Part shown: positions 12,705-49,727 of the stretch, in pieces | How the letters are laid out: every line of letters begins with the position of its first letter | Position numbering within the stretch: position 1 is the stretch's first letter | Source: a phage | NCBI GenBank assembly: GCA_011884725.1 | Contig: GCA_011884725.1_3919.1 | DNA: 64,000 nt | Direction: 5' to 3' (one strand) | Notes under the pieces: generated by a model | Databases searched by the model: none | Seen by the model: the letters and a program-made list of their open reading frames with translations, nothing else | What the model was told of the DNA's origin: nothing | Made by a program: the position numbers and the translations under genes

Positions 12705-13169
12705 TTACTTTGGATATACACTGTCAAGATAAATGTCAGCTTCCATTCTACGTCTATTTTTCAAGCCGTTTGAAGTTACCTTCTTACCTTTGACTGTAAT
12801 CTTGTTCCACCACTGCATAGCTTCTGCACAACCTACCTTATTACCAGCATTGTGGCGCTTGATAAATGTAGAGTCCTGCATAGCTGTGATACCGATGTTA
12901 TATGTTTCACTTACAAGTGCATCGAACTCATTCTGAGAAGTTGGAGCCTTGATAGCTTTGTTCACTGCTGCAACAAACTTTTCAACATCTGCGAGAAGAT
13001 ACTGTTCAGCTTGTTCAGCCGTGATTTTCATACCCATCTTAACAGGTTTCCCGTCAATACGGATTGTACCATACCCGATTGTTGGGATTCCGGCAGAGTC
13101 TTCGTAAGCCTCTAACTCCAGACCTTCGAAGAACTTAATAGCGTCTAAACCTTTTCTTGAGAGTTGCAT
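12705..13169 (-). CDS. endolysin, T4-lysozyme-like (GH24) muramidase
   Basis: FFEGLELEAYEDSAGIPTIGYG matches the T4 lysozyme catalytic region [22 protein letters not shown] (Glu-Asp-Thr spacing). Confidence 0.85.
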   Translation of the reverse strand: MQLSRKGLDAIKFFEGLELEAYEDSAGIPTIGYGTIRIDGKPVKMGMKITAEQAEQYLLADVEKFVAAVNKAIKAPTSQNEFDALVSETYNIGITAMQDSTFIKRHNAGNKVGCAEAMQWWNKITVKGKKVTSNGLKNRRRMEADIYLDSVYPK

Positions 13170-14302
13170 TACGCCTCCCCTGCTGGGTTAACTGTAACTG
13201 TTGCTGCATTGGATGTTACAGAGCCACCTGCACCAGTAACTACACAGGTGTAGCTTCCTGCATCAGCAGCGGTTGCACCTTCTTTGGTGTAAGTTGCAGT
13301 AGTTGCATCGAGGATGTCTTCCTCACCTTTCTTCCATTGGTAACCTGTCGCACCTGTTGCCACAACATTCAGCGTTAAGGTCTCACCTTCAGTGATTTCT
13401 TGATTGGTTGGCTGTTGAGTGATAACTGGTAAAGCTTTCACAGTAACGGTTGCAGGGTTAGAAGTGACAGAACCACCTGCACCTGTTACAACGCAAGTGT
13501 ATGAACCTGCATCTGCTGGCAGAGCACCAGACTTACTATAGGTTGCATCTGTAGCCGAAGGAATGTCAGAGCTATCTTTCTCCCACTGATAACCTGTTGC
13601 ACCTGTTGCAGTCACTTCCAAGTTGATGTTTCCACCCTCATTGACGGTCTGGCTAGAAGGTTGTTGTGTAATCACAGGCAGTGCGTTGACAGTAACTGTT
13701 GCCGCATCTGAGGTAACGCTTGTCCCAGCCTCTCCAGATACAACACAAGTGTATGAACCAGCATCAGAAGGTTCTACAGACTGTTTTGTGTAGGTTGCAG
13801 ATGTGGCGCTAGTGATATCCTCACCATCCTTTTTCCATTGATATCCAGTGGCATTAGTTGCAATAACACTTAGGGTAAGTGTACCACCTTCATTTACTGT
13901 TTGATTGGTTGGTTGCTGAGTGATTGATGGTGGCTTGATAGCGTCCTTCAACTTAGCATTCAACATTGAGAATGGTTTAACTCTTGCCAGCCATTCACAA
14001 TAAACTGTATCAACGTCTTTACCATTGATAATTGCATATTGTAAGTCCATGAAGAAGTCAGAAGTTCTCATTTGAGCACCAACACTGTAAAGCAACTCAT
14101 CACTAAATGGAACTTTGTAGTCTGGTTTATAGTCAAACTTCTCAACTTCTGCAATATCAGCTTCAGGCCAATACGAGCTATAGGTAAGTGGTAAAATAGC
14201 CTCTTGATATGTTCTAAAATCATATCTCTTACCAGCCTTTACGTTTGCAATGAAGCCCTTCACAAACTCTTTGAAGTCTGGGTAAGTCTTTGCTTTAATC
14301 AT
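13169..14302 (-). CDS. protein with three tandem Ig-like repeats
   Basis: 377 aa; N-domain of about 130 aa, then three repeats of about 85 aa (PVITQQPTNQTVNEGG..ATGYQWKK..AGSYTCVV.G..VTS..ATVTV). Confidence 0.7.
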   Translation of the reverse strand: MIKAKTYPDFKEFVKGFIANVKAGKRYDFRTYQEAILPLTYSSYWPEADIAEVEKFDYKPDYKVPFSDELLYSVGAQMRTSDFFMDLQYAIINGKDVDTVYCEWLARVKPFSMLNAKLKDAIKPPSITQQPTNQTVNEGGTLTLSVIATNATGYQWKKDGEDITSATSATYTKQSVEPSDAGSYTCVVSGEAGTSVTSDAATVTVNALPVITQQPSSQTVNEGGNINLEVTATGATGYQWEKDSSDIPSATDATYSKSGALPADAGSYTCVVTGAGGSVTSNPATVTVKALPVITQQPTNQEITEGETLTLNVVATGATGYQWKKGEEDILDATTATYTKEGATAADAGSYTCVVTGAGGSVTSNAATVTVNPAGEA

Positions 14303-15927: not shown

Positions 15928-16299
15928 ATGAAAAACAGAACAAACAAAGGCCAGTTTAAAAAAGGCCAGTCTGGAAACCCATCTGGAAGACCGAAAGGCT
16001 CACGTAACAAAAGTTCACTCGTAAAAGCTCAACTGACCATTGATAATTCTGCTGAGTTTGCTGCAAAGTTGTTTGAAGCGATTGTTACAAGGGACGCTGC
16101 TAAGCTTGCAGAGTTCGGGTTAAACACAGACGATGTAACCATCAAGAGCATGATTGAAGTCGGTAAAACCATCATGACTCACTCAGCAGGTGAGATGAAA
16201 GCAATTGCAGCAGACACTAAGAAGACCCCTGATAACGGTGGTCAGTCTCAGACAGATAACAAACCAACGTTCTCTGCTGTTGCAACCCTCAAAAAATAA
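15928..16299 (+). CDS. hypothetical protein with basic Gly/Pro-rich N-terminus
   Basis: 123 aa; KGQSGNPSGRPKGSRNK motif, possibly nucleic-acid binding; family not identified. Confidence 0.6.
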   Translation: MKNRTNKGQFKKGQSGNPSGRPKGSRNKSSLVKAQLTIDNSAEFAAKLFEAIVTRDAAKLAEFGLNTDDVTIKSMIEVGKTIMTHSAGEMKAIAADTKKTPDNGGQSQTDNKPTFSAVATLKK

Positions 16300-16311
16300 T
16301 TTTAAAAGGTG

Positions 16312-16341
16312 TTGACAGACTCTACAAAGTTGCTCTAAAGT
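16312..16341 (+). promoter_or_regulatory. possible promoter
   Basis: TTGACA (16312-16317) with TAAAGT-like -10. Confidence 0.35.
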
Positions 16342-16380
16342 CTGTCACATCAAACAACAAATGAGAGAAGAGAGTAAAAT

Positions 16381-17796
16381 ATGAGCGAATTATTTAAACA
16401 TGCGCACCTTCATGCAGGTCGAACTGAAAATGGTGCTGTAAACCATACTTCATCAATGTCTGCTCTTGTAGACTTTTACAAAGCTGCTGGTTCAAGCCGT
16501 AGCAATGTAGAAATCTTACCAGACCTGTTCTACAAAGCTTTGCGTGAGGATGTTGATGTTGCAGTTCGTATTTTACTGCATATGCGAGATGTACGAGAAG
16601 GTATGGGTGAGCGTAAAGCCTTCAGAACTGTTTTACTTCAAGCGATTGAAGACAAAGTTTTAGAGCCTACGCAGGTTCTTCGCATTATGGATAAGATTGC
16701 AGAACTTGGTCGTTTTGATGACTTCAAAATCTTTGTAGGTACTCGTTTCGAGACAGATGCCTTCAAGCATTTAGAAGCAGCATTACTAGACCCTGCAACA
16801 GCAGGTTTGGCAGCTAAGTGGTTACCACGAGTCAAACCACGTCATAAGCAGTTTGTAAAACGTTTCTGCAAGTTTGCCAACTTGAGCGAGAAAGAGTACC
16901 GCACACTGTTGTCTGCACTATCTGATACAGTTGAGCAAAAAATCTCTGCTAATGAGTTTGGTAAGATTGACTACAGTAAGATTCCTTCACTTGCTGCTGC
17001 ACGCTACCAAAAACTGTTTAACCGTAAAGATGGAGAGCGATACAAAGCTTACATCGAGTCCTTATCAAAGGGTGAGGCTAAGATTAATGCTGGTGCTGTT
17101 TACCCATACGATGTGATTAAATCTGTCAAGCATGGTAATGCAGATGTTGCTAATGAGCAGTGGAAAGCACTACCAAACTGGATGGCAGAAGGTGAAAACA
17201 TCTTGTGTATGTCTGATGTATCAAGTTCAATGTCTTGGGTGAATTTTGGCTCCATTACTGCTCTGGATATTGGTGTATCACTTGCCTTGTATGTAGCAGA
17301 ACGCAATACAGGCTGCTTTAAGAATGAGTTGATGGTTTATTCAACAAACCCTCACTTCATCGAACTGAGTGGTGATTTACGAAACCGTCATCGTCAGGTG
17401 ATGCGACACGTTGAATATGGCTCAACTAACTTACAAGCAGCTTTTGACCGCATTCTTGAAACAGGTAAAAGAAACAACTTGACTCAGAAAGATATGCCAA
17501 GTAAGCTTATCATCTTCTCCGATATGGAGTTCAATCAGGTTGATGGAGCTAACGGTCGTACAAACTTTGAAGCAATTCAGAGTAAGTACAAAAAAGCTGG
17601 ATATGAGATGCCACAACTGGTATTCTGGTACTTAGCAAACCGTAATGGTACTTGCGAAGTGTCTGTTAAGGATAACGGTGTAGCAATGGTATCTGGTTTC
17701 TCTCCAGCCACTTTAAAAGCTCTGCTTGGTGGTGAGAAGTTTGACCCAATCAGCGTAATGCTCAAAGCAGTAATGATTGACCGTTATATCTGGTAA
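16381..17796 (+). CDS. vWA-domain protein with helical N-domain (possible TROVE/Ro60-like architecture)
   Basis: 471 aa; C-terminal vWA with MIDAS-like DVSSSMS (DxSxS) and downstream T and D positions (IIFSDMEF); helical N-domain of about 270 aa; sits directly upstream of the tRNA array. Confidence 0.7.
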   Translation: MSELFKHAHLHAGRTENGAVNHTSSMSALVDFYKAAGSSRSNVEILPDLFYKALREDVDVAVRILLHMRDVREGMGERKAFRTVLLQAIEDKVLEPTQVLRIMDKIAELGRFDDFKIFVGTRFETDAFKHLEAALLDPATAGLAAKWLPRVKPRHKQFVKRFCKFANLSEKEYRTLLSALSDTVEQKISANEFGKIDYSKIPSLAAARYQKLFNRKDGERYKAYIESLSKGEAKINAGAVYPYDVIKSVKHGNADVANEQWKALPNWMAEGENILCMSDVSSSMSWVNFGSITALDIGVSLALYVAERNTGCFKNELMVYSTNPHFIELSGDLRNRHRQVMRHVEYGSTNLQAAFDRILETGKRNNLTQKDMPSKLIIFSDMEFNQVDGANGRTNFEAIQSKYKKAGYEMPQLVFWYLANRNGTCEVSVKDNGVAMVSGFSPATLKALLGGEKFDPISVMLKAVMIDRYIW

Positions 17797-17814
17797 AAAG
17801 TTTTAAAAAGGGTA

Positions 17815-17843
17815 TTGACAATGTGTTTAATACCCTTTAATAT
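17815..17843 (+). promoter_or_regulatory. promoter of tRNA array
   Basis: TTGACA (17815-17820), 17-nt spacer, TAATAT (17838-17843); a second TTGACA lies at 17906. Confidence 0.6.
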
Positions 17844-17961
17844 GTTCTACATAGAAACGAAATGAGAGCTTTTCTAAGATACTGAAAAATATTTTAAAAA
17901 AGTTCTTGACAACCACTAAAAAATAATGTTAAAGTGGTTACATAGAGTTTGAAAAGTTTAT

Positions 17962-18038
17962 CTCTGTTTAGCTCAGCTTGGTAGAGCGTTCCGTTTGGGG
18001 CGGTAAGGCCGGAGGTTCAAGTCCTCCAACAGAGACCA
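17962..18038 (+). tRNA. tRNA-Pro (anticodon TGG)
   Basis: 7-bp acceptor CTCTGTT/AACAGAG, T-arm GGAGGTTCAAGTCCTCC, anticodon loop TTTGGGG, encoded CCA. Confidence 0.75.
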
Positions 18039-18045
18039 AATTAAT

Positions 18046-18123
18046 GTTCCAGTAGACAAAATGGTAAAGTCACCACTCTTTCAAAGTGGATATCTGAGGG
18101 TTCAAATCCCTTCTGGAACGCCA
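18046..18123 (+). tRNA. tRNA-Glu (anticodon TTC)
   Basis: Acceptor GTTCCAG/CTGGAAC, anticodon stem CCACT/AGTGG, loop CTTTCAA, T-loop TTCAAAT, CCA. Confidence 0.75.
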
Positions 18124-18126
18124 GTT

Positions 18127-18205
18127 TTGACAGAAGACCAATTACAGCAAACTTAATCTTATTCATCTGAAGGTAAATCGGACAAAGAAGAGATTTGGTC
18201 TGGTC
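18127..18205 (+). ncRNA. inter-tRNA structured element E1
   Basis: CAGAAGACC-box, helix AGACCAA (18135-18141) / TTGGTCT (18195-18201), TTACAGCAAA box inside. Confidence 0.5.
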
Positions 18206-18214
18206 ATTAAGAAT

Positions 18215-18291
18215 TGCGGGTATAGAGAAAGGGCGTCTCACATGTCTCATTAGCATGGTATCGGCAGGTTCGACTCCTGCACCCGCCTCCA
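18215..18291 (+). tRNA. tRNA-Met-like (anticodon CAT) with 1:72 mismatch
   Basis: Anticodon stem CATGT/GCATG, loop CTCATTA, T-arm GCAGGTTCGACTCCTGC, 3' ACCCGCC-T-CCA; 5' end TGCGGGT leaves position 1 unpaired. Confidence 0.6.
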
Positions 18292-18294
18292 AAT

Positions 18295-18365
18295 TTACAG
18301 AAGACCGTTTACAGCAAAATTGAATGAAATTTTTAGCGGAAAAATTGAAAGATACGGTCTGGTAA
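18295..18365 (+). ncRNA. inter-tRNA structured element E2
   Basis: Helix AGACCGT (18302-18308) / ACGGTCT (18354-18360); compensatory to E1; TTACAGCAAAA box. Confidence 0.5.
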
Positions 18366-18375
18366 TACTAAACAT

Positions 18376-18449
18376 GGTTAGGAAGCACATAAGGTATGTG
18401 CGGTCGCCTGTTAAGCGAATGGCACAGGGTTCGAATCCCTGACTAACCG
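18376..18449 (+). tRNA. tRNA-Asn (anticodon GTT)
   Basis: Acceptor GGTTAGG, D-stem GCAC/GTGC, anticodon loop CTGTTAA, T-arm CAGGGTTCGAATCCCTG; no encoded CCA. Confidence 0.65.
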
Positions 18450-18461
18450 CAAAATTGAAAT

Positions 18462-18549
18462 GTGTCGTTATCCCGTAGATGGTAGCGGTGGGGACTGTAA
18501 ATCCCTTGTCATTGAGACTCGGTAGGTTCGACTCCTACACGGCACACCA
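18462..18549 (+). tRNA. tRNA-Tyr (anticodon GTA), long variable arm
   Basis: Acceptor GTGTCGT/ACGGCAC, anticodon loop CTGTAAA, long variable arm, T-arm GTAGGTTCGACTCCTAC, CCA. Confidence 0.7.
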
Positions 18550-18554
18550 ATAAA

Positions 18555-18631
18555 GGCTATGTAGTTTAACTGGAGAAAATACTCCCCTGTCACGGGAGAT
18601 GATGTGAGTTCAAGTCTCATCGTAGCCGCCA
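18555..18631 (+). tRNA. tRNA-Asp (anticodon GTC)
   Basis: Acceptor GGCTATG/CGTAGCC, anticodon stem CTCCC/GGGAG, loop CTGTCAC, T-loop TTCAAGT, CCA. Confidence 0.75.
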
Positions 18632-18685
18632 AATTATAATAAGTATTTCAAAATGATGTTTTGAGAGGGCTATTTAGCCCCTCCC

Positions 18686-18716
18686 TTAAAGAGTTCTTAC
18701 GAGTATTCTTTAAAGG
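18686..18716 (+). ncRNA. hairpin with conserved TTCTTACGAG loop, copy 1
   Basis: TTAAAGAGTTCTTACGAGTATTCTTTAAAGG; second copy at 22027-22056 has a different but still complementary stem. Confidence 0.45.
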
Positions 18717-18795
18717 AGCAGAAGACCAAATACAGCAAGAATGTATGATATTTTCAAGCCAATCCAATTTTGAAAAAATTTAAAACTTGGTCTGG
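18717..18795 (+). ncRNA. inter-tRNA structured element E3
   Basis: CAGAAGACC box, helix AGACCAA (18723-18729) / TTGGTCT (18787-18793), ATACAGCAAG box. Confidence 0.5.
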
Positions 18796-18804
18796 CTCAA
18801 CAAA

Positions 18805-18939
18805 TTTACAGAAGACCGTTTACAGCAAAACTTAAACAATCTATTTCTCGGTAAAGAAAAGGCGAAGGTTCGATTCCTTCACTCGGCAGATGTCGAGTTG
18901 GTGTAATGGTAGCACTTAAGATGATAAACAACGGTCTGG
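18805..18939 (+). ncRNA. element E4 enclosing a tRNA-like module
   Basis: Helix AGACCGTT (18813-18820) / AACGGTCT (18930-18937); inside: T-arm GAAGGTTCGATTCCTTC, hairpin ACTCGGC-AGAT-GTCGAGT, D-arm-like GTGTAATGGTAGCAC. The order is 3'-half before 5'-half. Confidence 0.45.
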
Positions 18940-18940
18940 T

Positions 18941-19084
18941 AATTATCTTTGTAGATAAGTTATTAAGCTTACCTGTGAGTATGCGACCACAAAGGGTGAA
19001 AGGGTAAATTCTAGATTTAAACCCAAAAAGGCACATCGCTACAGACCTTAAGCAAGTCTGGGTAGCTTATCTACAAAGATAATT
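18941..19084 (+). ncRNA. structured RNA closed by a 19-bp perfect helix
   Basis: AATTATCTTTGTAGATAAG (18941-18959) is the exact reverse complement of CTTATCTACAAAGATAATT (19066-19084); inner hairpins include CAGAC/GTCTG. Confidence 0.5.
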
Positions 19085-19088
19085 TAAT

Positions 19089-19164
19089 GGAAGTGTAGCA
19101 GAATGGTGATGCGGCAGACTTTTAATCTGACAGGCGATGGGTTCGAATCCCTCCACTTCTACCA
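19089..19164 (+). tRNA. tRNA-Lys (anticodon TTT)
   Basis: Acceptor GGAAGTG/CACTTCT (G1.U72), anticodon loop CTTTTAA, T-loop TTCGAAT (weak T-stem), CCA. Confidence 0.65.
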
Positions 19165-19168
19165 ATAT

Positions 19169-19245
19169 GGTTCAGTCGCAGATAAGGTAATGCAAGGGTC
19201 TCATAAGCCCTATGAATGTGGGTTCGATTCCCATCTGAACCTCCA
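19169..19245 (+). tRNA. tRNA with CAT anticodon (elongator Met or Ile2-type)
   Basis: Acceptor GGTTCAG/CTGAACC fully paired, anticodon stem AGGGT/GCCCT, loop CTCATAA, T-loop TTCGATT, CCA. Confidence 0.65.
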
Positions 19246-19246
19246 A

Positions 19247-19322
19247 GCTGGTATAGTTAAGAAGGTTATAACACTCCCCTGATAAGGGAACATCGGTGGT
19301 TCGATTCCACCTACCAGTACCA
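19247..19322 (+). tRNA. tRNA-Ile (anticodon GAT)
   Basis: Acceptor GCTGGTA/TACCAGT, anticodon loop CTGATAA, T-arm GGTGGTTCGATTCCACC, CCA. Confidence 0.7.
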
Positions 19323-19337
19323 ATTTCAATAAAGTTG

Positions 19338-19366
19338 TTGACATTGAGATGTGACTACTTTATAGT
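19338..19366 (+). promoter_or_regulatory. internal promoter within tRNA array
   Basis: TTGACA (19338-19343), 17-nt spacer, TATAGT (19361-19366). Confidence 0.6.
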
Positions 19367-19568
19367 AACCTTAGTTTTCGTTGCGTAGCGTCTATTTTGC
19401 AAATTTAAAATAAATGCAAACGACAATGTTTTTCTGGCAGTAGCTTGATAGGCTAAACACCAGTGAGGTCTTCCAATCCCTCATCAAAGAATTTGGCGTA
19501 CTCGCCCACGGTATGATTAATAAGGTGGGCATCTTTAAGGGCTTTCTAAGAGAGTCTTTAAAGATAAT

Positions 19569-19645
19569 GCACCCTTAGTTCAATTGGATAGAGCAACGGT
19601 CTTCTAAATCGTTAGTTACAGGTTCGAATCCTGTAGGGTGTACCA
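19569..19645 (+). tRNA. tRNA-Arg (anticodon TCT)
   Basis: Acceptor GCACCCT/AGGGTGT, D-arm TAGTTCAATTGGATAGAGC, anticodon loop CTTCTAA, T-loop TTCGAAT, CCA. Confidence 0.75.
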
Positions 19646-19787
19646 AATAGTTAGCAGATTACTTAGACGGCCTTAGCGGGTCTTCCTGTAGGGAGGTGGT
19701 CTGTATCTCATGTTTTCCAGAACATGTAAATAATCTGAGAAGAAGCTTGACAGTGTTGAGATAACAGGGTAAGCTTCGAATTATAAT

Positions 19788-19870
19788 ATGGGACGATGTT
19801 AAGACTCTAAGGCATGAGCAACGGCCTCCAAAACCGTTTCAAAGGGGTTCAACTCCTCCGTCCCATGCCA
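19788..19870 (+). tRNA. atypical tRNA (anticodon probably CCA, Trp?)
   Basis: Acceptor ATGGGAC/GTCCCAT, T-loop TTCAACT, CCA; anticodon stem AACGG/CCGTT encloses 9 nt (CCTCCAAAA); D region is 4-8 nt longer than usual. Confidence 0.45.
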
Positions 19871-19883
19871 AAGTCTTATTAGG

Positions 19884-19971
19884 GGTAGGTAGCGGCTAAT
19901 GGTAGCCAAACTGTCTTGAAAACAGTTGCCACTGTAGAGATACGGTGAGGGTTCGACTCCTTTACTTACCG
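19884..19971 (+). tRNA. tRNA-Ser (anticodon TGA), long variable arm
   Basis: Acceptor GGTAGGT/ACTTACC, anticodon stem ACTGT/ACAGT, loop CTTGAAA, long variable arm, T-loop TTCGACT. Confidence 0.65.
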
Positions 19972-20126
19972 CCTAATAAGATTTACTCCGTCCATGCTTG
20001 TTCGCATTGTCGGTTTATCCCTCGTGTATTGTCGTACACTGTCAAAGCACCTAGTAGGTGTCACGGAGAAGAGATAATATCAAGCTCTCCAAAGGTTCTA
20101 GTCACCGGATTAAACAAGACTATGCA

Positions 20127-20151
20127 AAGACCTATTTAGGTCTTTTTAGAG
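20127..20151 (+). terminator. intrinsic terminator inside tRNA array
   Basis: AAAGACC-TATTTA-GGTCTTT followed by TTTAG. Confidence 0.5.
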
Positions 20152-20227
20152 GGCTTCTAAGGTTATTAGTCGCTTGTTGTGGAACCTTGTTGCTTAGGTT
20201 CTTAGAAGTTCTCTAAAAAGATTTAAT

Positions 20228-20305
20228 GGGAGATTGACGGTAATTGGTAAACCTACCATCCTTAGAAGTTGGTGTTTGAGGGTTCGAATCCCTTGTCTCC
20301 TACCA
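20228..20305 (+). tRNA. tRNA, class I shape, anticodon TAG (Leu?)
   Basis: Acceptor GGGAGAT/GTCTCCT, anticodon loop CTTAGAA, 5-nt variable loop, T-loop TTCGAAT, A73, CCA. Confidence 0.5.
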
Positions 20306-20312
20306 AATTAAT

Positions 20313-20388
20313 GCAGGTGTAGCAAAATGGTTATGCGGCTGACTCTTAATCAGTAAGACGATGGGTTCAATTCCCTCCACCTGTACCA
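20313..20388 (+). tRNA. tRNA-Lys (anticodon CTT)
   Basis: Acceptor GCAGGTG/CACCTGT, anticodon stem GCTGA/TCAGT, loop CTCTTAA, T-loop TTCAATT, CCA. Confidence 0.6.
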
Positions 20389-20394
20389 AACATT

Positions 20395-20470
20395 GGGGAT
20401 GTAGTTTACATGGTTAAAACATAAGTTTTGCAAACTTAAGTACAGGGTTCAATTCCCTGCTTCTCCACCA
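20395..20470 (+). tRNA. tRNA-Cys (anticodon GCA)
   Basis: Anticodon stem AAGTT/AACTT, loop TTGCAAA, T-arm CAGGGTTCAATTCCCTG, CCA. Confidence 0.65.
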
Positions 20471-20476
20471 ATTAGT

Positions 20477-20551
20477 GCATCCATAGTTTAAACGGGAAAA
20501 TTACAGTCTTCCAAACTGAGGTTGAGGGTTCGATTCCCTCTGGATGCTCCA
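20477..20551 (+). tRNA. tRNA-Gly (anticodon TCC)
   Basis: Acceptor GCATCCA/TGGATGC, anticodon loop CTTCCAA, T-loop TTCGATT, CCA. Confidence 0.65.
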
Positions 20552-20557
20552 AACAAT

Positions 20558-20634
20558 GCTGCTTTCGTATAATTGGCTATTACACATCCCTTGTAAGGAT
20601 GGAAATGCAGGTTCGAGTCCTGTGAGCAGCACCA
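20558..20634 (+). tRNA. tRNA-Thr (anticodon TGT)
   Basis: Acceptor GCTGCTT/GAGCAGC, anticodon stem CATCC/GGATG, loop CTTGTAA, T-loop TTCGAGT, CCA. Confidence 0.7.
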
Positions 20635-20635
20635 A

Positions 20636-20730
20636 TTCAGAGGTCAAGTGAAAGACCGCTTTGAGTCAACTGAAGACCGTAACAAATACCACGGAGTTGA
20701 GTTAGCGGCACAACTTCAGACCTCTTTCAT
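20636..20730 (+). ncRNA. structured spacer element between tRNA-Thr and tRNA-Val
   Basis: Closing helix CAGAGGTC (20638-20645) / GACCTCTT (20722-20729); contains a GAAGACCGT box as in E2/E4; no T-loop. Confidence 0.4.
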
Positions 20731-20805
20731 ACTCGCTTAGTTTATATGGTAAAACATCACCCTTACAAGATGAAGAAAAAGGTTCAAGTCCTTTAGTGAG
20801 TACCA
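20731..20805 (+). tRNA. tRNA-Val (anticodon TAC)
   Basis: Acceptor ACTCGCT/AGTGAGT, anticodon loop CTTACAA, T-arm AAAGGTTCAAGTCCTTT, CCA. Confidence 0.6.
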
Positions 20806-20806
20806 T

Positions 20807-20884
20807 GTTCCAGTATCCCAATTGGCAGAGGATGCAAGCTCAAACCTTGTATTAGTGACGGTTCGAATCCGTCTTGGAACACCA
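20807..20884 (+). tRNA. tRNA, class I shape, anticodon CAA (Leu?)
   Basis: Acceptor GTTCCAG/TTGGAAC, anticodon stem GCAAG/CTTGT, loop CTCAAAC, T-arm GACGGTTCGAATCCGTC, A73, CCA. Confidence 0.5.
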
Positions 20885-20889
20885 ATTTT

Positions 20890-20965
20890 GCAGGATTAGT
20901 TCAAATGGAAAGAGCAACAGTCTACGAAGCTGTTAATAGGGGTTCGAATCCCTTATCCTGCGCCA
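20890..20965 (+). tRNA. tRNA-Arg (anticodon ACG)
   Basis: Acceptor GCAGGAT/ATCCTGC, D-stem GTTC/GAGC, anticodon stem ACAGT/GCTGT, loop CTACGAA, T-loop TTCGAAT, CCA. Confidence 0.75.
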
Positions 20966-20982
20966 GATAAAAAGGTGATACT

Positions 20983-21225
20983 ATGCAAACATTAACAGTA
21001 GTTGAACATGAAAACTGTGAGAGTATTGAGTTTGTCAGGGTCATTGGTGTTGAACACCACATTTTCTTAAAAGTGGGATACTTATGTGACCCCGCTAGAG
21101 TAGAAAGATTTATACGTGATTGTTTTGGTGGTAGACATCTGAAGAGTGTTATTTTTGAGACAGTTTTACCAGAAGGTTTAGAAACGAATAATAACATTTA
21201 CCTCCTTACGAGGATTAGACAATGA
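20983..21225 (+). CDS. hypothetical protein embedded in tRNA array
   Basis: 80-aa ORF; RBS AAAGGTGA 7 nt upstream of ATG. Confidence 0.5.
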   Translation: MQTLTVVEHENCESIEFVRVIGVEHHIFLKVGYLCDPARVERFIRDCFGGRHLKSVIFETVLPEGLETNNNIYLLTRIRQ

Positions 21226-21779
21226 GATACTTAAAGTATGCTTCATGGATTTTCTTAGCTTTGTTAGAGCCATTTGCAGCAATCTTAGCAGTTATCTTAG
21301 CACCTTTTGTAGTTCCATTCTACAGTGAGAAGAAAGGACACTTACCTTTCGGGTTCAGATGGATGGAGACATATGACAACCCAATTGATGGTGATGAAGG
21401 TCACGTTAAAAGATGGGCTAATATTAGATGGATTGGTAAACTAGGTGTCTACATGCAAAGAGTCGGATGGCTCTGGAGAAACAAAGCTTATAACTTCTCT
21501 TACCATGTATTAGGAAGAGATGTAAGAGATGTTACTAAGTGGAAAGGTAATATCAACGTAAGTTCTAACCCTGAAGATAATCAGACTGGTTATCTCCTAA
21601 TGTGGAACAGTAATGCTTGGGGATTATTCGCTTTTATCCCATCAATTAAAGTCTTCGGTAAACAGTTTTACTGGAGAATTTATGTTGGATGGAAACTTAA
21701 AAGTGTTGTCCCAGAAGAAAGAGCATTCTCAAGGGAAAGAGTTATGTTGGCATTCTTTATTCATCCACTGAGAAAGTAA
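21222..21779 (+). CDS. hypothetical membrane protein embedded in tRNA array
   Basis: 185 aa; N-terminal TM segment (WIFLALLEPFAAILAVILAPFVVPF); start overlaps previous stop; RBS GAGGA. Confidence 0.6.
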   Translation: MRYLKYASWIFLALLEPFAAILAVILAPFVVPFYSEKKGHLPFGFRWMETYDNPIDGDEGHVKRWANIRWIGKLGVYMQRVGWLWRNKAYNFSYHVLGRDVRDVTKWKGNINVSSNPEDNQTGYLLMWNSNAWGLFAFIPSIKVFGKQFYWRIYVGWKLKSVVPEERAFSRERVMLAFFIHPLRK

Positions 21780-21787
21780 AGATTTAA

Positions 21788-21863
21788 AGGGGATTAGTTT
21801 ACAAGGTTAAAACCTCGGTCTTTGAAATCGAAGAAGTTGGTTCAATTCCAACATCCCCCGCCA
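21788..21863 (+). tRNA. tRNA-Gln (anticodon TTG)
   Basis: Anticodon stem TCGGT/ATCGA, loop CTTTGAA, T-arm GTTGGTTCAATTCCAAC, 3' ATCCCCC-G-CCA; position 1 (A) unpaired with C72. Confidence 0.6.
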
Positions 21864-21865
21864 AT

Positions 21866-21944
21866 GCTCCATTACTCCAATTGGCAGAGAGGCCAGACTT
21901 AAAATCTGTGTTATGTATCGGTTCGAATCCGATATGGAGTACCA
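21866..21944 (+). tRNA. tRNA, class I shape, anticodon TAA (Leu?)
   Basis: Acceptor GCTCCAT/ATGGAGT, anticodon loop CTTAAAA, T-arm ATCGGTTCGAATCCGAT, A73, CCA. Confidence 0.5.
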
Positions 21945-21949
21945 AATTT

Positions 21950-22025
21950 AGCGGTATAGCATAACTGGCAATGCAGCAGTCTCTGAAGCTGTCCTATTAA
22001 GGTTCAAATCCTTATGCCGCTGCCA
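21950..22025 (+). tRNA. tRNA-Gln (anticodon CTG)
   Basis: Acceptor AGCGGTA/TGCCGCT, D-stem GCAT/ATGC, anticodon stem GCAGT/GCTGT, loop CTCTGAA, T-loop TTCAAAT, CCA. Confidence 0.6.
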
Positions 22026-22026
22026 C

Positions 22027-22056
22027 TTCTAAGGATTCTTACGAGAGTCCTTAAAT
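22027..22056 (+). ncRNA. hairpin with conserved TTCTTACGAG loop, copy 2
   Basis: TTCTAAGGATTCTTACGAGAGTCCTTAAATG; stem TAAGGATTC/GAGTCCTTA. Confidence 0.45.
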
Positions 22057-22132
22057 GTGGCCTTATCATAAATGGTAATGACCCATGCTGTGAACATGGT
22101 CTATACGGGTTCAAATCCCGTAGGTCACCCCA
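22057..22132 (+). tRNA. tRNA-His (anticodon GTG)
   Basis: Acceptor GTGGCCT/AGGTCAC, anticodon stem CCATG/CATGG, loop CTGTGAA, T-arm ACGGGTTCAAATCCCGT, CCA. Confidence 0.7.
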
Positions 22133-22138
22133 ATTTAT

Positions 22139-22214
22139 AGTCCAAGTAGCTTATATGGTTAAAGCGCGTGTCTGAAAAACATGAGAAGAGGGTTCAAATC
22201 CCACTGGACTACCA
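22139..22214 (+). tRNA. tRNA-Phe (anticodon GAA)
   Basis: Acceptor AGTCCAA/CTGGACT, anticodon stem CGTGT/ACATG, loop CTGAAAA, T-loop TTCAAAT (short T-stem), CCA. Confidence 0.6.
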
Positions 22215-22230
22215 ATTTCAAAGGTGCTTA

Positions 22231-22965
22231 ATGAAAGAGATGACAGAACAAGGTAAGGAGATTTTCAATCTCTTAAAAACCGGTAAAGGGTTTTCTAACC
22301 CCCTTATTACTGGTGCAGCAGTTCTCGGTGGAACCGTAGCTGCCTCTACATCACTTGTAAGCTCTATTAGCTCTGTATCAGACCCTACAGTAAAGGATAA
22401 GCTTGTTGCTGCTGGACTTACAACAGTTCTGCTTAACAGCTTTACCACGAGTCTGACAAGCACTACATCAACTACCAAAACACTAACAGATTACGGTCAA
22501 AAGTCCATTGATGAGTTTTCATCACGTATGCAGGTAGCAAAAGGTTACTCTAATGTTATGGGTGCAGCAGGTGAACAAGTTGGCTGTACACCATTTAGTG
22601 GTATTATGGGTGTTGCTACAGAGTATGGTCAAAAAACTATTGATACGATTAACAGTGTACTAGATAGTGTTAATGGTGTGTTAAGTGACTTACAAGATGC
22701 TATTGACAAAGGTCTTGATACTATTTCTGATTTAGCTGAGCAAGCTGTTAGTAAGATTAATGAAGGTATTTCAAAAATTACAGCTTATGCAGATGAAGTT
22801 GTGCAGATGATTGAAGAAGAAGCTGCTCTTATTGCAGAGTACCTTAAAACGAATATCAATGGGTTCTTAGCAGGTATCTTACCAGACTGGTTTGATGATG
22901 CTTGTAAAACTGGTGTAATTGACACTATTGCAACACCAGAAATGAAGAACGCATTACAGAAATAA
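22231..22965 (+). CDS. hypothetical protein (Ser/Thr-rich N-half, helical C-half)
   Basis: Listed ORF starts at 22168 inside tRNA-Phe; in-frame ATG at 22231 with RBS AAAGG chosen. Confidence 0.55.
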   Translation: MKEMTEQGKEIFNLLKTGKGFSNPLITGAAVLGGTVAASTSLVSSISSVSDPTVKDKLVAAGLTTVLLNSFTTSLTSTTSTTKTLTDYGQKSIDEFSSRMQVAKGYSNVMGAAGEQVGCTPFSGIMGVATEYGQKTIDTINSVLDSVNGVLSDLQDAIDKGLDTISDLAEQAVSKINEGISKITAYADEVVQMIEEEAALIAEYLKTNINGFLAGILPDWFDDACKTGVIDTIATPEMKNALQK

Positions 22966-22967
22966 AT

Positions 22968-23060
22968 GGAAGATTAACCCTAAAAGGTAAGGGAGCAGTT
23001 TGCTAAACTGCCAGTAGCTGAGAAATCGGTGTACCAGTTCAAGTCTGGTATCTTCCTCCA
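22968..23060 (+). tRNA. tRNA-Ser (anticodon GCT), long variable arm
   Basis: Acceptor GGAAGAT/ATCTTCC, D-stem CCC/GGG, anticodon stem GCAGT/ACTGC, loop TTGCTAA, long variable arm, T-arm ACCAGTTCAAGTCTGGT, CCA. Confidence 0.7.
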
Positions 23061-23064
23061 ATTT

Positions 23065-23140
23065 GAATCCGTGACAGAAACGGCTATGTGCCTGTCTGCA
23101 AAACAGGTTTATAAGGGTTCGAGTCCCTTCGGATTCTCCA
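23065..23140 (+). tRNA. tRNA with GCA anticodon (second Cys-like)
   Basis: Acceptor GAATCCG/CGGATTC, anticodon stem CCTGT/ACAGG, loop CTGCAAA, T-arm AAGGGTTCGAGTCCCTT, CCA; atypical D-arm. Confidence 0.5.
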
Positions 23141-49367: not shown

Positions 49368-49727
49368 TTATGGAAACAGACACTTAATGTCATCGTTTTT
49401 GAAGACGAAACTTGTGTAATTGTGACCGTCAACATCCAGCCAAACAGCCTGAACATCTACACCGTCAAGATTCTGGTAAAGCTCTTTGATGAAGTGGTCT
49501 TTTACAATCTGGCTGCTAGTTGTTTCCAGCTTAATGTTTGAGATTGCTGAACCTACAGCCATATAACCCATGACACGTTTCTTCTCAGTATGTTTAATCT
49601 TACCATCTTTGTAAGCCATAATGAGATTTGAAAGAATTTTTACACCATAATACTTTTCAAGGTGAGTGGGTACGCCATAAAAACCTAATGCGAAGTTTTC
49701 AGAGTGGATAATGTTTTCACGTTTCAT
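49368..49727 (-). CDS. hypothetical protein
   Basis: 119-aa ORF. Confidence 0.6.
   Translation of the reverse strand: MKRENIIHSENFALGFYGVPTHLEKYYGVKILSNLIMAYKDGKIKHTEKKRVMGYMAVGSAISNIKLETTSSQIVKDHFIKELYQNLDGVDVQAVWLDVDGHNYTSFVFKNDDIKCLFP

What the first reader, a model, noticed from the sequence alone, without database searches (positions are those of the whole stretch)
16381..19084. Possible phage Ro60-like (TROVE/vWA) protein next to tRNA-like structured RNAs
The 471-aa protein at 16381-17796 has a helical N-domain and a C-terminal vWA domain with MIDAS-like DVSSSM and a downstream FSDME acidic site, close to the Ro60 pattern as I recall it (DVSASM .. FTDNE). It sits immediately upstream of the tRNA array, whose first kilobase holds four paralogous structured elements, one carrying a tRNA-like module. 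Bacterial Ro60 orthologs (Rsr) are encoded beside Y RNAs, and some Y RNAs (YrlA) mimic tRNA. That makes this a candidate Ro/Y-RNA-type module in this phage. The protein-family call is from motif memory, not a search, and vWA domains are common, so the link is a hypothesis.
Basis: partly seen in the sequence, partly recalled or inferred. Interest (0 to 1): 0.8.

Follow-up and report, generated by a model that had tools for sequence, protein, structure and literature searches.

The report
Phage Ro60-like protein with Y-like RNAs
This Felix O1-type coliphage encodes a ring-shaped Ro60-like RNA-binding protein, followed inside its tRNA gene array by four small structured RNAs (one a tRNA mimic) that carry a conserved hairpin-plus-CAGCAA signature found next to the same protein family in very diverse phages.

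Summary
ORF 16381-17796 is Pfam DUF2828+DUF7788, with no TROVE profile hit. Its AlphaFold model (pLDDT 90) matches only full-length Ro60/Rsr structures, and the MIDAS residues are invariant. It is 98% identical to Bas63 gp130, which a 2024 preprint called Ro60-like and showed to counter the Ppl defence. That preprint only guessed that some tRNA genes might be Y RNAs.

The RNAs lie between the tRNAs. Four paralogs (18128-18206, 18295-18365, 18716-18798, 18806-18942) share a closing helix, an AGA/G internal loop, a variable helix and a single-stranded UUACAGCAA box. The fourth encloses a permuted tRNA-like module (V, T arm, acceptor-like stem, D arm), which is the YrlA architecture, and covariation supports it.

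The same "stem + CAGCAA + G" module sits within 1 kb of the gene, on the gene strand, in 56 of 76 loci from unrelated phages. That is about 12-fold enriched. It was absent from four canonical TROVE-type phage loci.

Verdict: a DUF2828-branch Ro/Y-RNA module, a new variant of a known kind. Protein-RNA binding and RNA expression are untested.

The parts
16312..16341 (+). sigma-70-like promoter candidate upstream of the Ro-like gene (TTGACA-18-TAAAGT)
   Evidence: Consensus scan only. The total number of sites found was not above the shuffle expectation, so this is weak evidence.
16381..17796 (+). Ro60-fold protein gene, 471 aa. N-terminal helical (HEAT-like) ring part, about residues 1-265; C-terminal vWA domain with complete MIDAS (D279, S281, S283, T349, D381). 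Ortholog of Bas63 gp130.
   Evidence: Pfam DUF2828 1e-29 + DUF7788 2e-43, PHROG 850 'RNA-binding protein' 3e-184. AF2 pLDDT 90.2, pTM 0.89. Foldseek top 12 hits are Ro60/Rsr. 98% identical to bas63_0130.
17815..17935 (+). two sigma-70-like promoter candidates (17815-17843, 17906-17935) ahead of the tRNA/ncRNA array
   Evidence: Consensus scan; inference only.
17962..18123 (+). tRNA-Pro and tRNA-Glu, which directly precede element 1
   Evidence: ARAGORN and Rfam.
18128..18206 (+). Y-like element E1. Closing helix UGAC/GUCA, internal loop AGA/G, helix AGACCAA/UUGGUCU (18135-18141 / 18195-18201), CAGCAA box 18145-18150, variable loop.
   Evidence: The MFE fold equals the family fold. A covariance model trained only on unrelated phages scores it 23.8 bits, E 5e-3, second-best hit in the window. 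In orthologs the boxes are invariant while the loop is replaced.
18215..18291 (+). tRNA-Met between E1 and E2
18295..18365 (+). Y-like element E2. Closing helix UUAC/GUAA, AGA/G loop, helix AGACCGU/ACGGUCU, CAGCAA box 18312-18317.
   Evidence: Top covariance-model hit in the window, 26.7 bits, E 9e-4. Compensatory UUAC/GUAA to UUGC/GCAA change among orthologs.
18716..18798 (+). Y-like element E3. Closing helix GAGC/GCUC, AGA/G loop, helix AGACCAA/UUGGUCU, CAGCAA box 18733-18738, conserved inner hairpin.
   Evidence: Repeat family D7. The family fold is -18.6 kcal/mol against an MFE of -20.2. Conserved across Felixounavirus, Mooglevirus and Suspvirus.
18806..18942 (+). YrlA-like element E4. Closing helix 18806-18809/18939-18942, AGA/G loop, helix 18813-18820/18930-18937, CAGCAA box 18823-18828, V stem-loop 18844-18859, T arm 18864-18880 (loop UUCGAUU), acceptor-like stem-loop 18881-18898, U-G spacer, D arm 18900-18916 (loop AAUGGUA).
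   Evidence: Fold. 12-sequence alignment from unrelated phages: 88.5% of cells paired against 67.7% in shuffles (0/500), and 17 of 21 pairs show compensatory changes. The acceptor-like stem is fully swapped between genera.
18940..19088 (+). fifth structured element (24-bp terminal stem, branched interior). It has no closing-stem-plus-CAGCAA module, and its membership of the system is uncertain.
   Evidence: MFE -48.3 kcal/mol, z -7.2. Conserved only within Felixounavirus, 11 of 20 loci.

Best explanation
The locus is a phage Ro60/Y-RNA-type module of the DUF2828 branch. The 471-aa protein folds into the Ro60 architecture, a helical-repeat ring plus a vWA domain with an intact MIDAS site. Four small RNAs are encoded just downstream on the same strand, interleaved with the first tRNAs of the array. 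They are most likely transcribed with the tRNAs and released when RNase P and the tRNA 3'-end processing enzymes cut out the flanking tRNAs. E1 and E2 are bounded by tRNAs within 3-10 nt on each side.

Each RNA presents the same basal module: a closing helix, an AGA/G internal loop, a 7-8-bp helix of free sequence, and a single-stranded UUACAGCAA box, with a G 3' of the helix. I infer that this module is the binding site for the Ro-like protein. The variable upper part would be the effector end. It is a plain loop in E1-E3. In E4 it is a tRNA-like L-shape (T arm, acceptor-like stem, D arm), as in bacterial YrlA, able to attract tRNA-recognising enzymes or nucleases.

The resulting RNP probably acts on RNA or tRNA quality control or turnover during infection, and contributes to the anti-defence activity shown for the orthologous Bas63 gp130 against Ppl.

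Shown: the fold, the RNA structures and their covariation, and the cross-phage association. Inferred: transcription and processing, protein-RNA binding, and the biological role.
For: Protein:
- Pfam DUF2828+DUF7788.
- The AF2 model matches full-length Ro60/Rsr and the Thermus phage phiLo Ro60 at E 2e-8 to 7e-7. Everything else matches only as an isolated vWA domain.
- MIDAS residues are invariant.
- The mycobacteriophage Kingsolomon homolog (34% identity) is annotated 'Ro-like RNA binding protein'.

RNA in the window:
- Four paralogs whose inner helices differ but stay complementary.
- The MFE fold equals the family fold for E1, E2 and E4.
- In orthologs the boxes are conserved, the loops diverge freely, and helix changes are compensatory.

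Family level:
- In 76 loci encoding homologs (39-54% identity, from Gram-negative, Gram-positive and actinobacterial phages), stem+CAGCAA elements occur at 0.57-0.66 per kb within 1 kb of the gene on the gene strand. The rate is about 0.05 per kb far away or on the other strand, and 0-0.05 per kb in reversed-sequence controls. 56 of 76 loci have at least one.
- The G directly 3' of the stem is invariant in 32 of 32 elements although it was not imposed.
- A covariance model built only from non-Ounavirinae elements ranks E2 and E1 first and second in the whole window.
- Insert length is bimodal. The long inserts are T arm, acceptor-like stem and D arm modules with strong covariation.
- Rfam YrlA scores several of them at 35-41 bits, E 7.5e-6 to 6e-4. 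One is the Kingsolomon element, which lies inside a CAGCAA stem.
- Four canonical TROVE-type phage loci have YrlA cores but no CAGCAA hairpins.

Context: RtcB ligase, a macro-domain enzyme and tRNA arrays lie next to homologs.

Experiment in the literature: Bas63 gp130 counters Ppl (PMC11482910).
Against: - No Pfam TROVE hit, and no significant sequence similarity to Ro60.
- The Rfam Y_RNA and YrlA models do not detect E1-E4 even at E<=10.
- The bacterial Y RNA motif GNCGAAN0-1G is not present as such. The Felix 5' strand reads ACAGAAGAC.
- No expression or binding data exist for these RNAs.
- gp130 alone, without the phage RNAs, rescued T7 on a Ppl host. The anti-Ppl activity therefore does not need these RNAs, at least in that setting.
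- About 18 of 76 loci show no detectable element within 5 kb.
- The closing stems in the family survey were selected by my own descriptor, so their pairing is not independent evidence. The independent evidence is the strand bias, the position bias, the invariant G, and the T, acceptor-like and D helices.
Confidence: 0.62

Rival explanations
1. The stem+CAGCAA elements are cis-acting RNA signals for processing, stability, termination or translational control of the Ro-like gene and tRNA transcripts. They are not trans-acting partners of the protein.
For: In many loci they sit in the immediate 5' or 3' untranslated region of the gene. In Aeromonas phage 4_4572 and Vibrio phage ValKK3 one copy abuts or overlaps the ribosome-binding site or start codon. 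They are always on the gene strand.
Against: They come in arrays of 3-8 copies. In this window they are separated from the gene by promoter-like sites and two tRNAs. Many enclose complete tRNA-like modules of the YrlA type, which a simple processing or stability signal would not need.
Confidence: 0.15
2. The protein and the RNAs function independently. The Ro-fold protein is a protein-level inhibitor of the Ppl defence, for example through its MIDAS face. The inter-tRNA RNAs are tRNA-derived decoys or remnants that travel with tRNA arrays.
For: gp130 alone rescues T7 on Ppl hosts. The gene often lies in or next to tRNA arrays, so co-location could partly reflect a shared neighbourhood. One relative encloses a normally ordered tRNA body.
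Against: The elements track the gene even where there is no tRNA array: Aeromonas 4_4572, and Staphylococcus and Listeria phages. Canonical TROVE phage loci that have tRNAs nearby lack them. The conserved basal module is unrelated to tRNA.
Confidence: 0.15
3. The repeats are DNA-level features such as promoters, recombination or homing-endonuclease sites, or miniature mobile repeats, not RNAs.
For: The 5' box of E1 contains TTGACA, and E2 and E4 contain TTTACA. Homing endonuclease genes are inserted in this region in some relatives.
Against: The promoter scan finds no site at the elements. The -35-like hexamer is absent in other lineages. Strand specificity, compensatory base changes and GU pairs indicate selection on RNA pairing.
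Confidence: 0.04
4. The protein is a generic vWA/MIDAS protein unrelated to Ro60, and the resemblance is a modelling artefact.
For: There is no sequence-level link to TROVE. The prediction is a model, not a solved structure.
Against: The model has high confidence and was built without templates. The alignments to Ro60 are full-length, over 500 columns, whereas other vWA proteins align over 150-250 columns. An independent structural comparison in the preprint reached the same conclusion.
Confidence: 0.03

Closest known systems
Bas63 (Escherichia phage JohannRWettstein) gp130, PhageMaP preprint PMC11482910
   Same: Orthologous gene, 98% identical, at the same position before the tRNA array. The authors noted structural similarity to Ro60, proposed that Y RNAs might lie in the tRNA region, and showed that it counters the Ppl defence.
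   Different: They suggested that some annotated tRNA genes might be Y RNAs. The candidate RNAs found here are the unannotated inter-tRNA elements, part of which Bas63 annotates as minus-strand ORFs 0137 and 0138. The family-wide CAGCAA hairpin signature is not described there.
Bacterial Rsr with YrlA/YrlB (Salmonella rsr-yrlBA-rtcBA) and Deinococcus Rsr-Yrn1-PNPase (RYPER); Chen et al. 2014, PMC4201824
   Same: A Ro60-fold protein is encoded beside several small RNAs. One RNA has a terminal stem plus a permuted tRNA-like domain in the order V, T, acceptor-like stem, D. In some phage relatives the neighbourhood includes RtcB.
   Different: The protein belongs to Pfam DUF2828/DUF7788, not TROVE. 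The RNAs carry a CAGCAA box and an invariant 3' G instead of GNCGAAN0-1G. They are embedded in a tRNA array. The Rfam YrlA model does not reach threshold.
Thermus phage phiLo Ro60 with Yrl1/Yrl2 (PMC12135203; PDB 9KOP, 9L5Y)
   Same: A phage-encoded Ro60-fold protein with adjacent Y-like RNAs. Binding to the RNAs and to host PNPase was shown in vitro. It is among the top structural matches to this protein.
   Different: There is no detectable sequence relationship. Yrl1 and Yrl2 were defined by a CGAA motif and lie upstream of the gene. No tRNA-like module or CAGCAA box is reported.
Canonical TROVE-type Ro of actinobacteriophages (e.g. Mycobacterium phages Cali gp224, Sparky gp36)
   Same: Phage Ro proteins with a YrlA-core RNA next to the gene, often near tRNAs.
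   Different: They are 33-40% identical to human Ro60, whereas this protein shows no significant similarity. Four such loci lack stem+CAGCAA elements.
Stable small RNAs encoded within the phage T4 tRNA gene cluster (species 1 and 2; from my own knowledge, not checked here)
   Same: Small non-tRNA stable RNAs that are co-encoded and co-processed with phage tRNAs.
   Different: T4 has no homolog of this protein as far as I know, and no sequence comparison was made.

Membership tests
Ro60 / Rsr (TROVE) proteins | Ring of helical (HEAT-like) repeats fused to a C-terminal vWA domain (Ro60 fold) | tested here: met
   AF2 model pLDDT 90.2. The Foldseek top 12 PDB hits are all Ro60/Rsr over more than 500 aligned columns, TM 0.49-0.66.
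Ro60 / Rsr (TROVE) proteins | Match to the Pfam TROVE profile, or significant sequence similarity to Ro60 | tested here: not met
   No TROVE hit at E<=1. No Ro60 hit in PDB sequence or profile searches. BLASTP against human Ro60 gives best E 0.24.
Ro60 / Rsr (TROVE) proteins | MIDAS motif (DxSxS ... T ... D) in the vWA domain | tested here: met
   D279, S281, S283, T349 and D381 are invariant in 60 homologs.
Ro60 / Rsr (TROVE) proteins | Binds Y RNAs and misfolded RNAs | not testable with these tools
   Needs RIP, EMSA or a structure.
Pfam DUF2828 / DUF7788 (PHROG 850) | Profile matches above the curated cut-offs | tested here: met
   DUF2828 scores 104 bits (cut-off 29), DUF7788 scores 149 bits (cut-off 27), and PHROG 850 gives E 3e-184.
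YrlA (Rfam RF02553), applied to element E4 | Covariance-model score at or above the gathering score (69 bits) | tested here: not met
   No YrlA hit on 18806-18942 at E<=10. Related phage elements reach 35-41 bits.
YrlA (Rfam RF02553), applied to element E4 | Terminal stem formed by the 5' and 3' ends, enclosing a tRNA-like domain in the order V, T arm, acceptor-like stem-loop, D arm | tested here: met
   Fold. Covariation across 12 elements: 17 of 21 pairs compensatory, 0 of 500 shuffles as good.
YrlA (Rfam RF02553), applied to element E4 | GNCGAAN0-1G motif near the 5' end (Chen et al. 2014) | tested here: not met
   The 5' strand reads ACAGAAGACC. Other family members have (A/U)AGR and no CGAA.
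YrlA (Rfam RF02553), applied to element E4 | Encoded adjacent to a Ro60 ortholog | tested here: met
   It lies 1 kb downstream of the Ro-fold gene on the same strand. The association recurs in 56 of 76 loci.
Y RNAs in general, applied to E1-E3 | Stable small RNA bound by Ro through a conserved basal helix | not testable with these tools
   The conserved basal module is shown. Expression and binding are not.

The most novel reading that the evidence does not exclude
The stem + CAGCAA + G hairpins are a previously undescribed, very widespread class of phage Y-like RNAs. They would be the cognate ligands of the DUF2828 branch of Ro60-fold proteins, a family with thousands of sequence clusters. 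They are often present in arrays of 3-8 copies, and tRNA-processing enzymes mature them out of tRNA arrays. Their loops serve as interchangeable cargo positions that can hold permuted or normally ordered tRNA bodies. Together with the protein they form an anti-defence RNP, Ppl being one target.
Probability: 0.4. Interest if true: 0.78.

Novelty: new variant of a known kind. Interest (0 to 1): 0.62.

Why it matters
Ro60/Y RNA particles are known from animals and bacteria, and from a few phages that carry canonical TROVE proteins. This analysis indicates that a much larger phage protein family is the same kind of machine. That family is filed as DUF2828/DUF7788 and has 8861 50%-identity clusters at E<=1e-3. 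It also has its own recognisable RNA signature.

This gives the experimentally tractable Bas63/Felix O1 system concrete RNA candidates. Its protein already has a phenotype, countering the Ppl defence. The candidates allow tests of how a phage Ro RNP works, whether tRNA mimicry is used against tRNA- or RNA-directed immunity, and how non-tRNA RNAs are matured from tRNA arrays.

It also corrects annotations. Minus-strand "hypothetical proteins" are called over these RNAs, and the RNA genes themselves are unannotated in hundreds of phage genomes.

Tried and rejected
- **Rfam scans.** Gathering and permissive E-value scans gave no Y_RNA or YrlA hit on E1-E4. There was only a weak chance-level Dicty_Class_I_RNA hit on E1.
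- **Sequence links to Ro60.** PDB sequence and profile searches, NCBIfam and BLASTP against human Ro60 gave no usable link.
- **Profile search of 1.84 billion representatives**. It showed the size of the family, but only the top 150 hits are listed. It could not show whether the weak tail reaches TROVE proteins.
- **Shared Ro-binding motif idea.** I first thought that CACAGGA...UCCAG, shared by Yersinia phage P778 and the Rfam alignment of the Kingsolomon YrlA, was a common Ro-binding motif. I rejected this once the outer TGGACCCC/GGGGTCCA stem with a CAGCAA box was seen around the Kingsolomon element.
- **MAFFT alignments of the plain hairpins**. They left the 3' arms out of register. I therefore built the covariance model from a gap-free alignment with loop centres trimmed to 30 nt. 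It is a search descriptor, not a natural alignment.
- **Covariance-model hit at 49505-49566 (-).** At E 0.05 and inside an ORF, it is treated as chance.
- **Promoter reading of the 5' box.** Not supported.
- **Supplementary tables.** Those of Chen 2014 and of the PhageMaP preprint are not held. I could not check which phages Chen et al. listed, or whether knockouts of Bas63 ORFs 0137 and 0138 phenocopy g130.
- **Literature searches.** Searches for DUF2828, for Felixounavirus transcriptomes and for the Ppl mechanism gave nothing further.

Full report
**Origin of the window.** The region 16000-20000 is 97.5% identical to Escherichia typing phage 1 and matches 289 Felix O1-like phage records (Felixounavirus and relatives).

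**The observation.** ORF 16381-17796 (+) encodes 471 aa and contains DVSSSM and FSDME as described. ARAGORN finds 26 tRNA genes from 17962 to 23140, all on the + strand, and Rfam confirms 24 of them. The repeat finder reports a four-copy family (D7). The pattern AGAAGACCNNNTACAGCAA occurs exactly four times, at 18132, 18299, 18720 and 18810. Allowing up to 3 mismatches gives 5 matches in the window, against 0.79 expected from shuffles. Each copy has a 3' partner, nnnGGTCTGG.

**The protein.**
- Pfam assigns DUF2828 (residues 172-264) and DUF7788 (274-455). PHROGs assigns family 850, "RNA-binding protein", at 3e-184. There is no TROVE hit at E<=1.
- NCBIfam and PDB sequence searches give nothing relevant.
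- I aligned 60 homologs of 40-89% identity from the 5.8-billion-protein search. D279, S281, S283, T349 and D381 are invariant, which is a complete MIDAS site.
- AlphaFold2 on this alignment gives pLDDT 90.2 and pTM 0.89. The model has an all-helical N-terminal two-thirds and an alpha/beta C-terminal domain.
- In the Foldseek search against the PDB, the 12 best matches are all Ro60 proteins aligned over their full length. They are Xenopus Ro (2i91, 1yvr, 1yvp), human Ro60 (9nfa, 9nf8, 9nep), Deinococcus Rsr (2nvo) and the Ro60 of Thermus phage phiLo (9kop, 9l5y), at E 2e-8 to 7e-7 and TM up to 0.66. Everything below them is an isolated vWA domain with TM about 0.2.
- The protein therefore has the Ro60 fold without detectable sequence similarity. 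BLASTP against human Ro60 finds only the MIDAS segment, at E 0.24 (query verified).
- The family is very large: 8861 50%-identity clusters at E<=1e-3.

**What is already known.**
[quoted passage not shown] It shows that deleting g130 impairs plaquing on a host carrying the Ppl defence. It also shows that gp130 alone rescues T7 on that host. bas63_0130 is 98% identical to the window protein and syntenic with it.
- Chen et al. 2014 (PMC4201824) found YrlA RNAs beside TROVE proteins in more than 250 bacteria and phages.
- The phiLo Ro60 binds two adjacent Y-like RNAs and host PNPase (PMC12135203).
- The Ro-like nature of the protein and the general idea are therefore not new. The RNAs themselves had not been identified in the literature I could search.

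**The RNAs in the window.**
- All four elements fold with the same base. It consists of a 4-bp closing helix (UGAC/GUCA, UUAC/GUAA, GAGC/GCUC, UUAC/GUAA), an asymmetric internal loop (AGA opposite G), a 7-8-bp helix (AGACC+nnn / nnn+GGUCU, where nnn differs between copies but stays complementary), and then single-stranded UUACAGCAA.
- E1 (18128-18206), E2 (18295-18365) and E3 (18716-18798) have plain or hairpin loops.
- E4 (18806-18942) encloses a V stem-loop, a T arm with loop UUCGAUU, an acceptor-like stem closed by a tetraloop, a U-G spacer, and a D arm with loop AAUGGUA. This is the layout described for YrlA.
- E1 and E2 are bounded by tRNA genes within 3-10 nt, so tRNA processing would release them. 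This is an inference.
- Across Felixounavirus, Mooglevirus and Suspvirus the boxes are almost invariant, while the loops diverge or are replaced outright. The E2 closing helix changes compensatorily (UUAC/GUAA to UUGC/GCAA). The acceptor-like stem of E4 is entirely different in sequence in the three genera yet always paired.
- The Rfam Y_RNA and YrlA models do not detect any of the four.

**The RNAs beyond this phage.**
- tblastn finds homologs of the protein in 710 phage records from hosts as different as Vibrio, Aeromonas, Campylobacter, Listeria, Staphylococcus, Enterococcus, Bacillus and Mycobacterium.
- In mycobacteriophage Kingsolomon the homolog (34% identity, also DUF2828+DUF7788, annotated "Ro-like RNA binding protein") is followed by a sequence that Rfam YrlA scores at 37.9 bits, E 1e-5.
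- Reading the loci of Yersinia phage P778 and Aeromonas phage 4_4572 showed series of hairpins whose stems differ completely in sequence. All are followed by (U)NCAGCAA on the 5' side and CUG(U) on the 3' side.
- I fetched 80 further loci from IMG/VR and scanned everything with a simple descriptor: a stem of at least 7 bp, then 1-4 nt, then CAGCAA.
- In 76 loci, elements occur at 0.57 and 0.66 per kb in the 1 kb upstream and downstream of the gene on the gene strand. The rate is 0.05-0.06 per kb elsewhere on that strand, 0.03-0.08 per kb on the other strand, and 0-0.05 per kb in reversed-sequence controls. 56 of 76 loci have at least one.
- The G directly after the 3' strand, which the descriptor did not require, is present in 32 of 32 non-redundant elements.
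- The Kingsolomon YrlA hit lies inside such an element (TGGACCCC-ca-CAGCAA ... GGGGTCCA-G).
- Insert lengths are bimodal, at about 30-40 nt and 80-120 nt. The long inserts carry T arm, acceptor-like stem and D arm modules.
- An alignment of 12 such elements from unrelated phages, including E4, gives an RNAalifold consensus of closing stem, T arm, acceptor-like stem and D arm. 88.5% of cells are paired, against 67.7% in shuffles (0/500) and 42-51% when partners are slid. 17 of 21 pairs show compensatory changes, including 6 of 6 in the acceptor-like stem, which no step of my selection imposed.
- Rfam YrlA scores further members at 38-41 bits, E 7.5e-6 to 6e-5.
- A covariance model built only from 32 elements of non-Ounavirinae phages, with loops trimmed to make a gap-free alignment, ranks E2 (26.7 bits, E 9e-4) and E1 (23.8 bits, E 5e-3) first and second in the whole 64-kb window on both strands. 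The next hit lies inside an ORF and is probably chance.
- About 18 loci have no detectable element within 5 kb.

**Specificity.** Phages also carry canonical TROVE-type Ro proteins: 358 records are 33-40% identical to human Ro60. In four such loci Rfam finds YrlA cores next to the gene in two (Cali, Sparky), but there is no stem+CAGCAA element outside coding sequence. The sample is small. It suggests that the CAGCAA module belongs to the DUF2828 branch.

**Context.** Homologs sit in or beside tRNA arrays in Ralstonia, Bacillus and Enterococcus phages. In a Listeria phage the homolog lies near an RtcB RNA ligase, and in a Sinorhizobium phage near a macro-domain enzyme. This echoes the bacterial rsr-yrl-rtcBA arrangement (PMC7790460, seen).

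**Interpretation.** The best reading is a Ro/Y-RNA module of a divergent branch. The ring protein would recognise the conserved basal module of the RNAs. The variable upper part is the effector end, which in E4 is a tRNA mimic. The fold, the RNA structures and the association are shown. Transcription, processing by tRNA enzymes, binding and the biological role are inferred. The finding that gp130 alone counters Ppl in T7 means that at least this activity does not depend on the phage's own RNAs, which keeps the rival "independent functions" alive. The other rivals (cis-regulatory signals, DNA-level repeats, a generic vWA protein) fit the data less well, for the reasons given in their entries.

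**Verdict.** Relative to the literature, the protein call is already known for this genus. The new elements are the identification of the actual RNAs and of a family-wide stem+CAGCAA signature specific to the DUF2828 branch. It is a new variant of a known kind of system.

Noticed in passing
window 18940-19088 (+): A 149-nt element directly after E4 and before tRNA-Lys. It has a 24-bp terminal stem and a branched interior (MFE -48.3 kcal/mol, z -7.2). It has no closing-stem-plus-CAGCAA module and is conserved only within Felixounavirus (11 of 20 loci). It could be a second kind of Y-like RNA (YrlB-like) or an RNase III substrate.
   Followed up: partly
window ~19788-19872 (+): A tRNA-like sequence that ARAGORN misses. 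It has an acceptor-like GGGACG/CGUCCC pairing, the anticodon-loop sequence CUCCAAA (Trp, CCA), a T arm GGGGUUCAACUCC, and an enlarged D region. Rfam gives only a weak tRNA-Sec hit (23 bits). It may be an unusual tRNA-Trp or a pseudo-tRNA.
   Followed up: no
window 20635-20730 (+): A 96-nt hairpin between tRNA-Thr and tRNA-Val (z about -4). It contains GAAGACCGUAACAAA...ACGG, which looks like a degenerate miniature of the E1-E4 5' box. The same sequence is conserved in Moogle, SUSP2 and Sf16.
   Followed up: no
window 18806-19036 (-); L096 (Bas63) 12749-13023 (-): Minus-strand ORFs (76 aa here; bas63_0137 and 0138 in Bas63) lie entirely over the structured RNA elements E3-E5. They are probably spurious gene calls.
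   Followed up: partly
L014 (Listeria phage LP-083-2) 929-1480, 2122-2385, 2459-3982, 5315-6458: A ROOL RNA (87 bits, just under the gathering score of 99), three CAGCAA hairpins, the DUF2828 gene and an RtcB-like ligase all lie within 6.5 kb. This suggests a larger RNA-centred gene neighbourhood in Herelleviridae.
   Followed up: no
L083 7328-7428: A CAGCAA stem encloses a tRNA body in normal order (D arm, anticodon-like arm, T arm; Rfam tRNA positions 5-66, 55.7 bits). The family stem replaces the acceptor stem. This is a different way of grafting a tRNA shape onto the same base.
   Followed up: no
L008 (Cronobacter phage S13) 4395-4788; L057 6895-7288: Two unusually long 'tRNAs' (121 and 113 nt) lie directly in front of a CAGCAA element with a T, acceptor-like and D module, just downstream of the DUF2828 gene.
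   Followed up: no
window 15928-16299 (+): A 123-aa ORF immediately upstream of the Ro-like gene, on the same strand. RefSeq annotates it as DUF5681 domain-containing. It keeps this position in Moogle, SUSP2, Sf16, Bas63 and Yersinia phage P778, so it may be a functional partner.
   Followed up: no
window 13169-14302 (-): A 377-aa protein with three tandem Ig-like repeats (ITQQP[ST]xQTVNEGG...GSYTCVV), annotated as an immunoglobulin-like domain, tail or head-decoration protein in relatives.
   Followed up: no
family-wide (A5 alignment): Many plain-loop elements contain one or two further AGCAA or GCAA motifs inside the loop (e.g. L037, L043, L059). CAGCAA also reads as two glutamine codons, and the phage carries both tRNA-Gln species; that is probably coincidence.
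   Followed up: no
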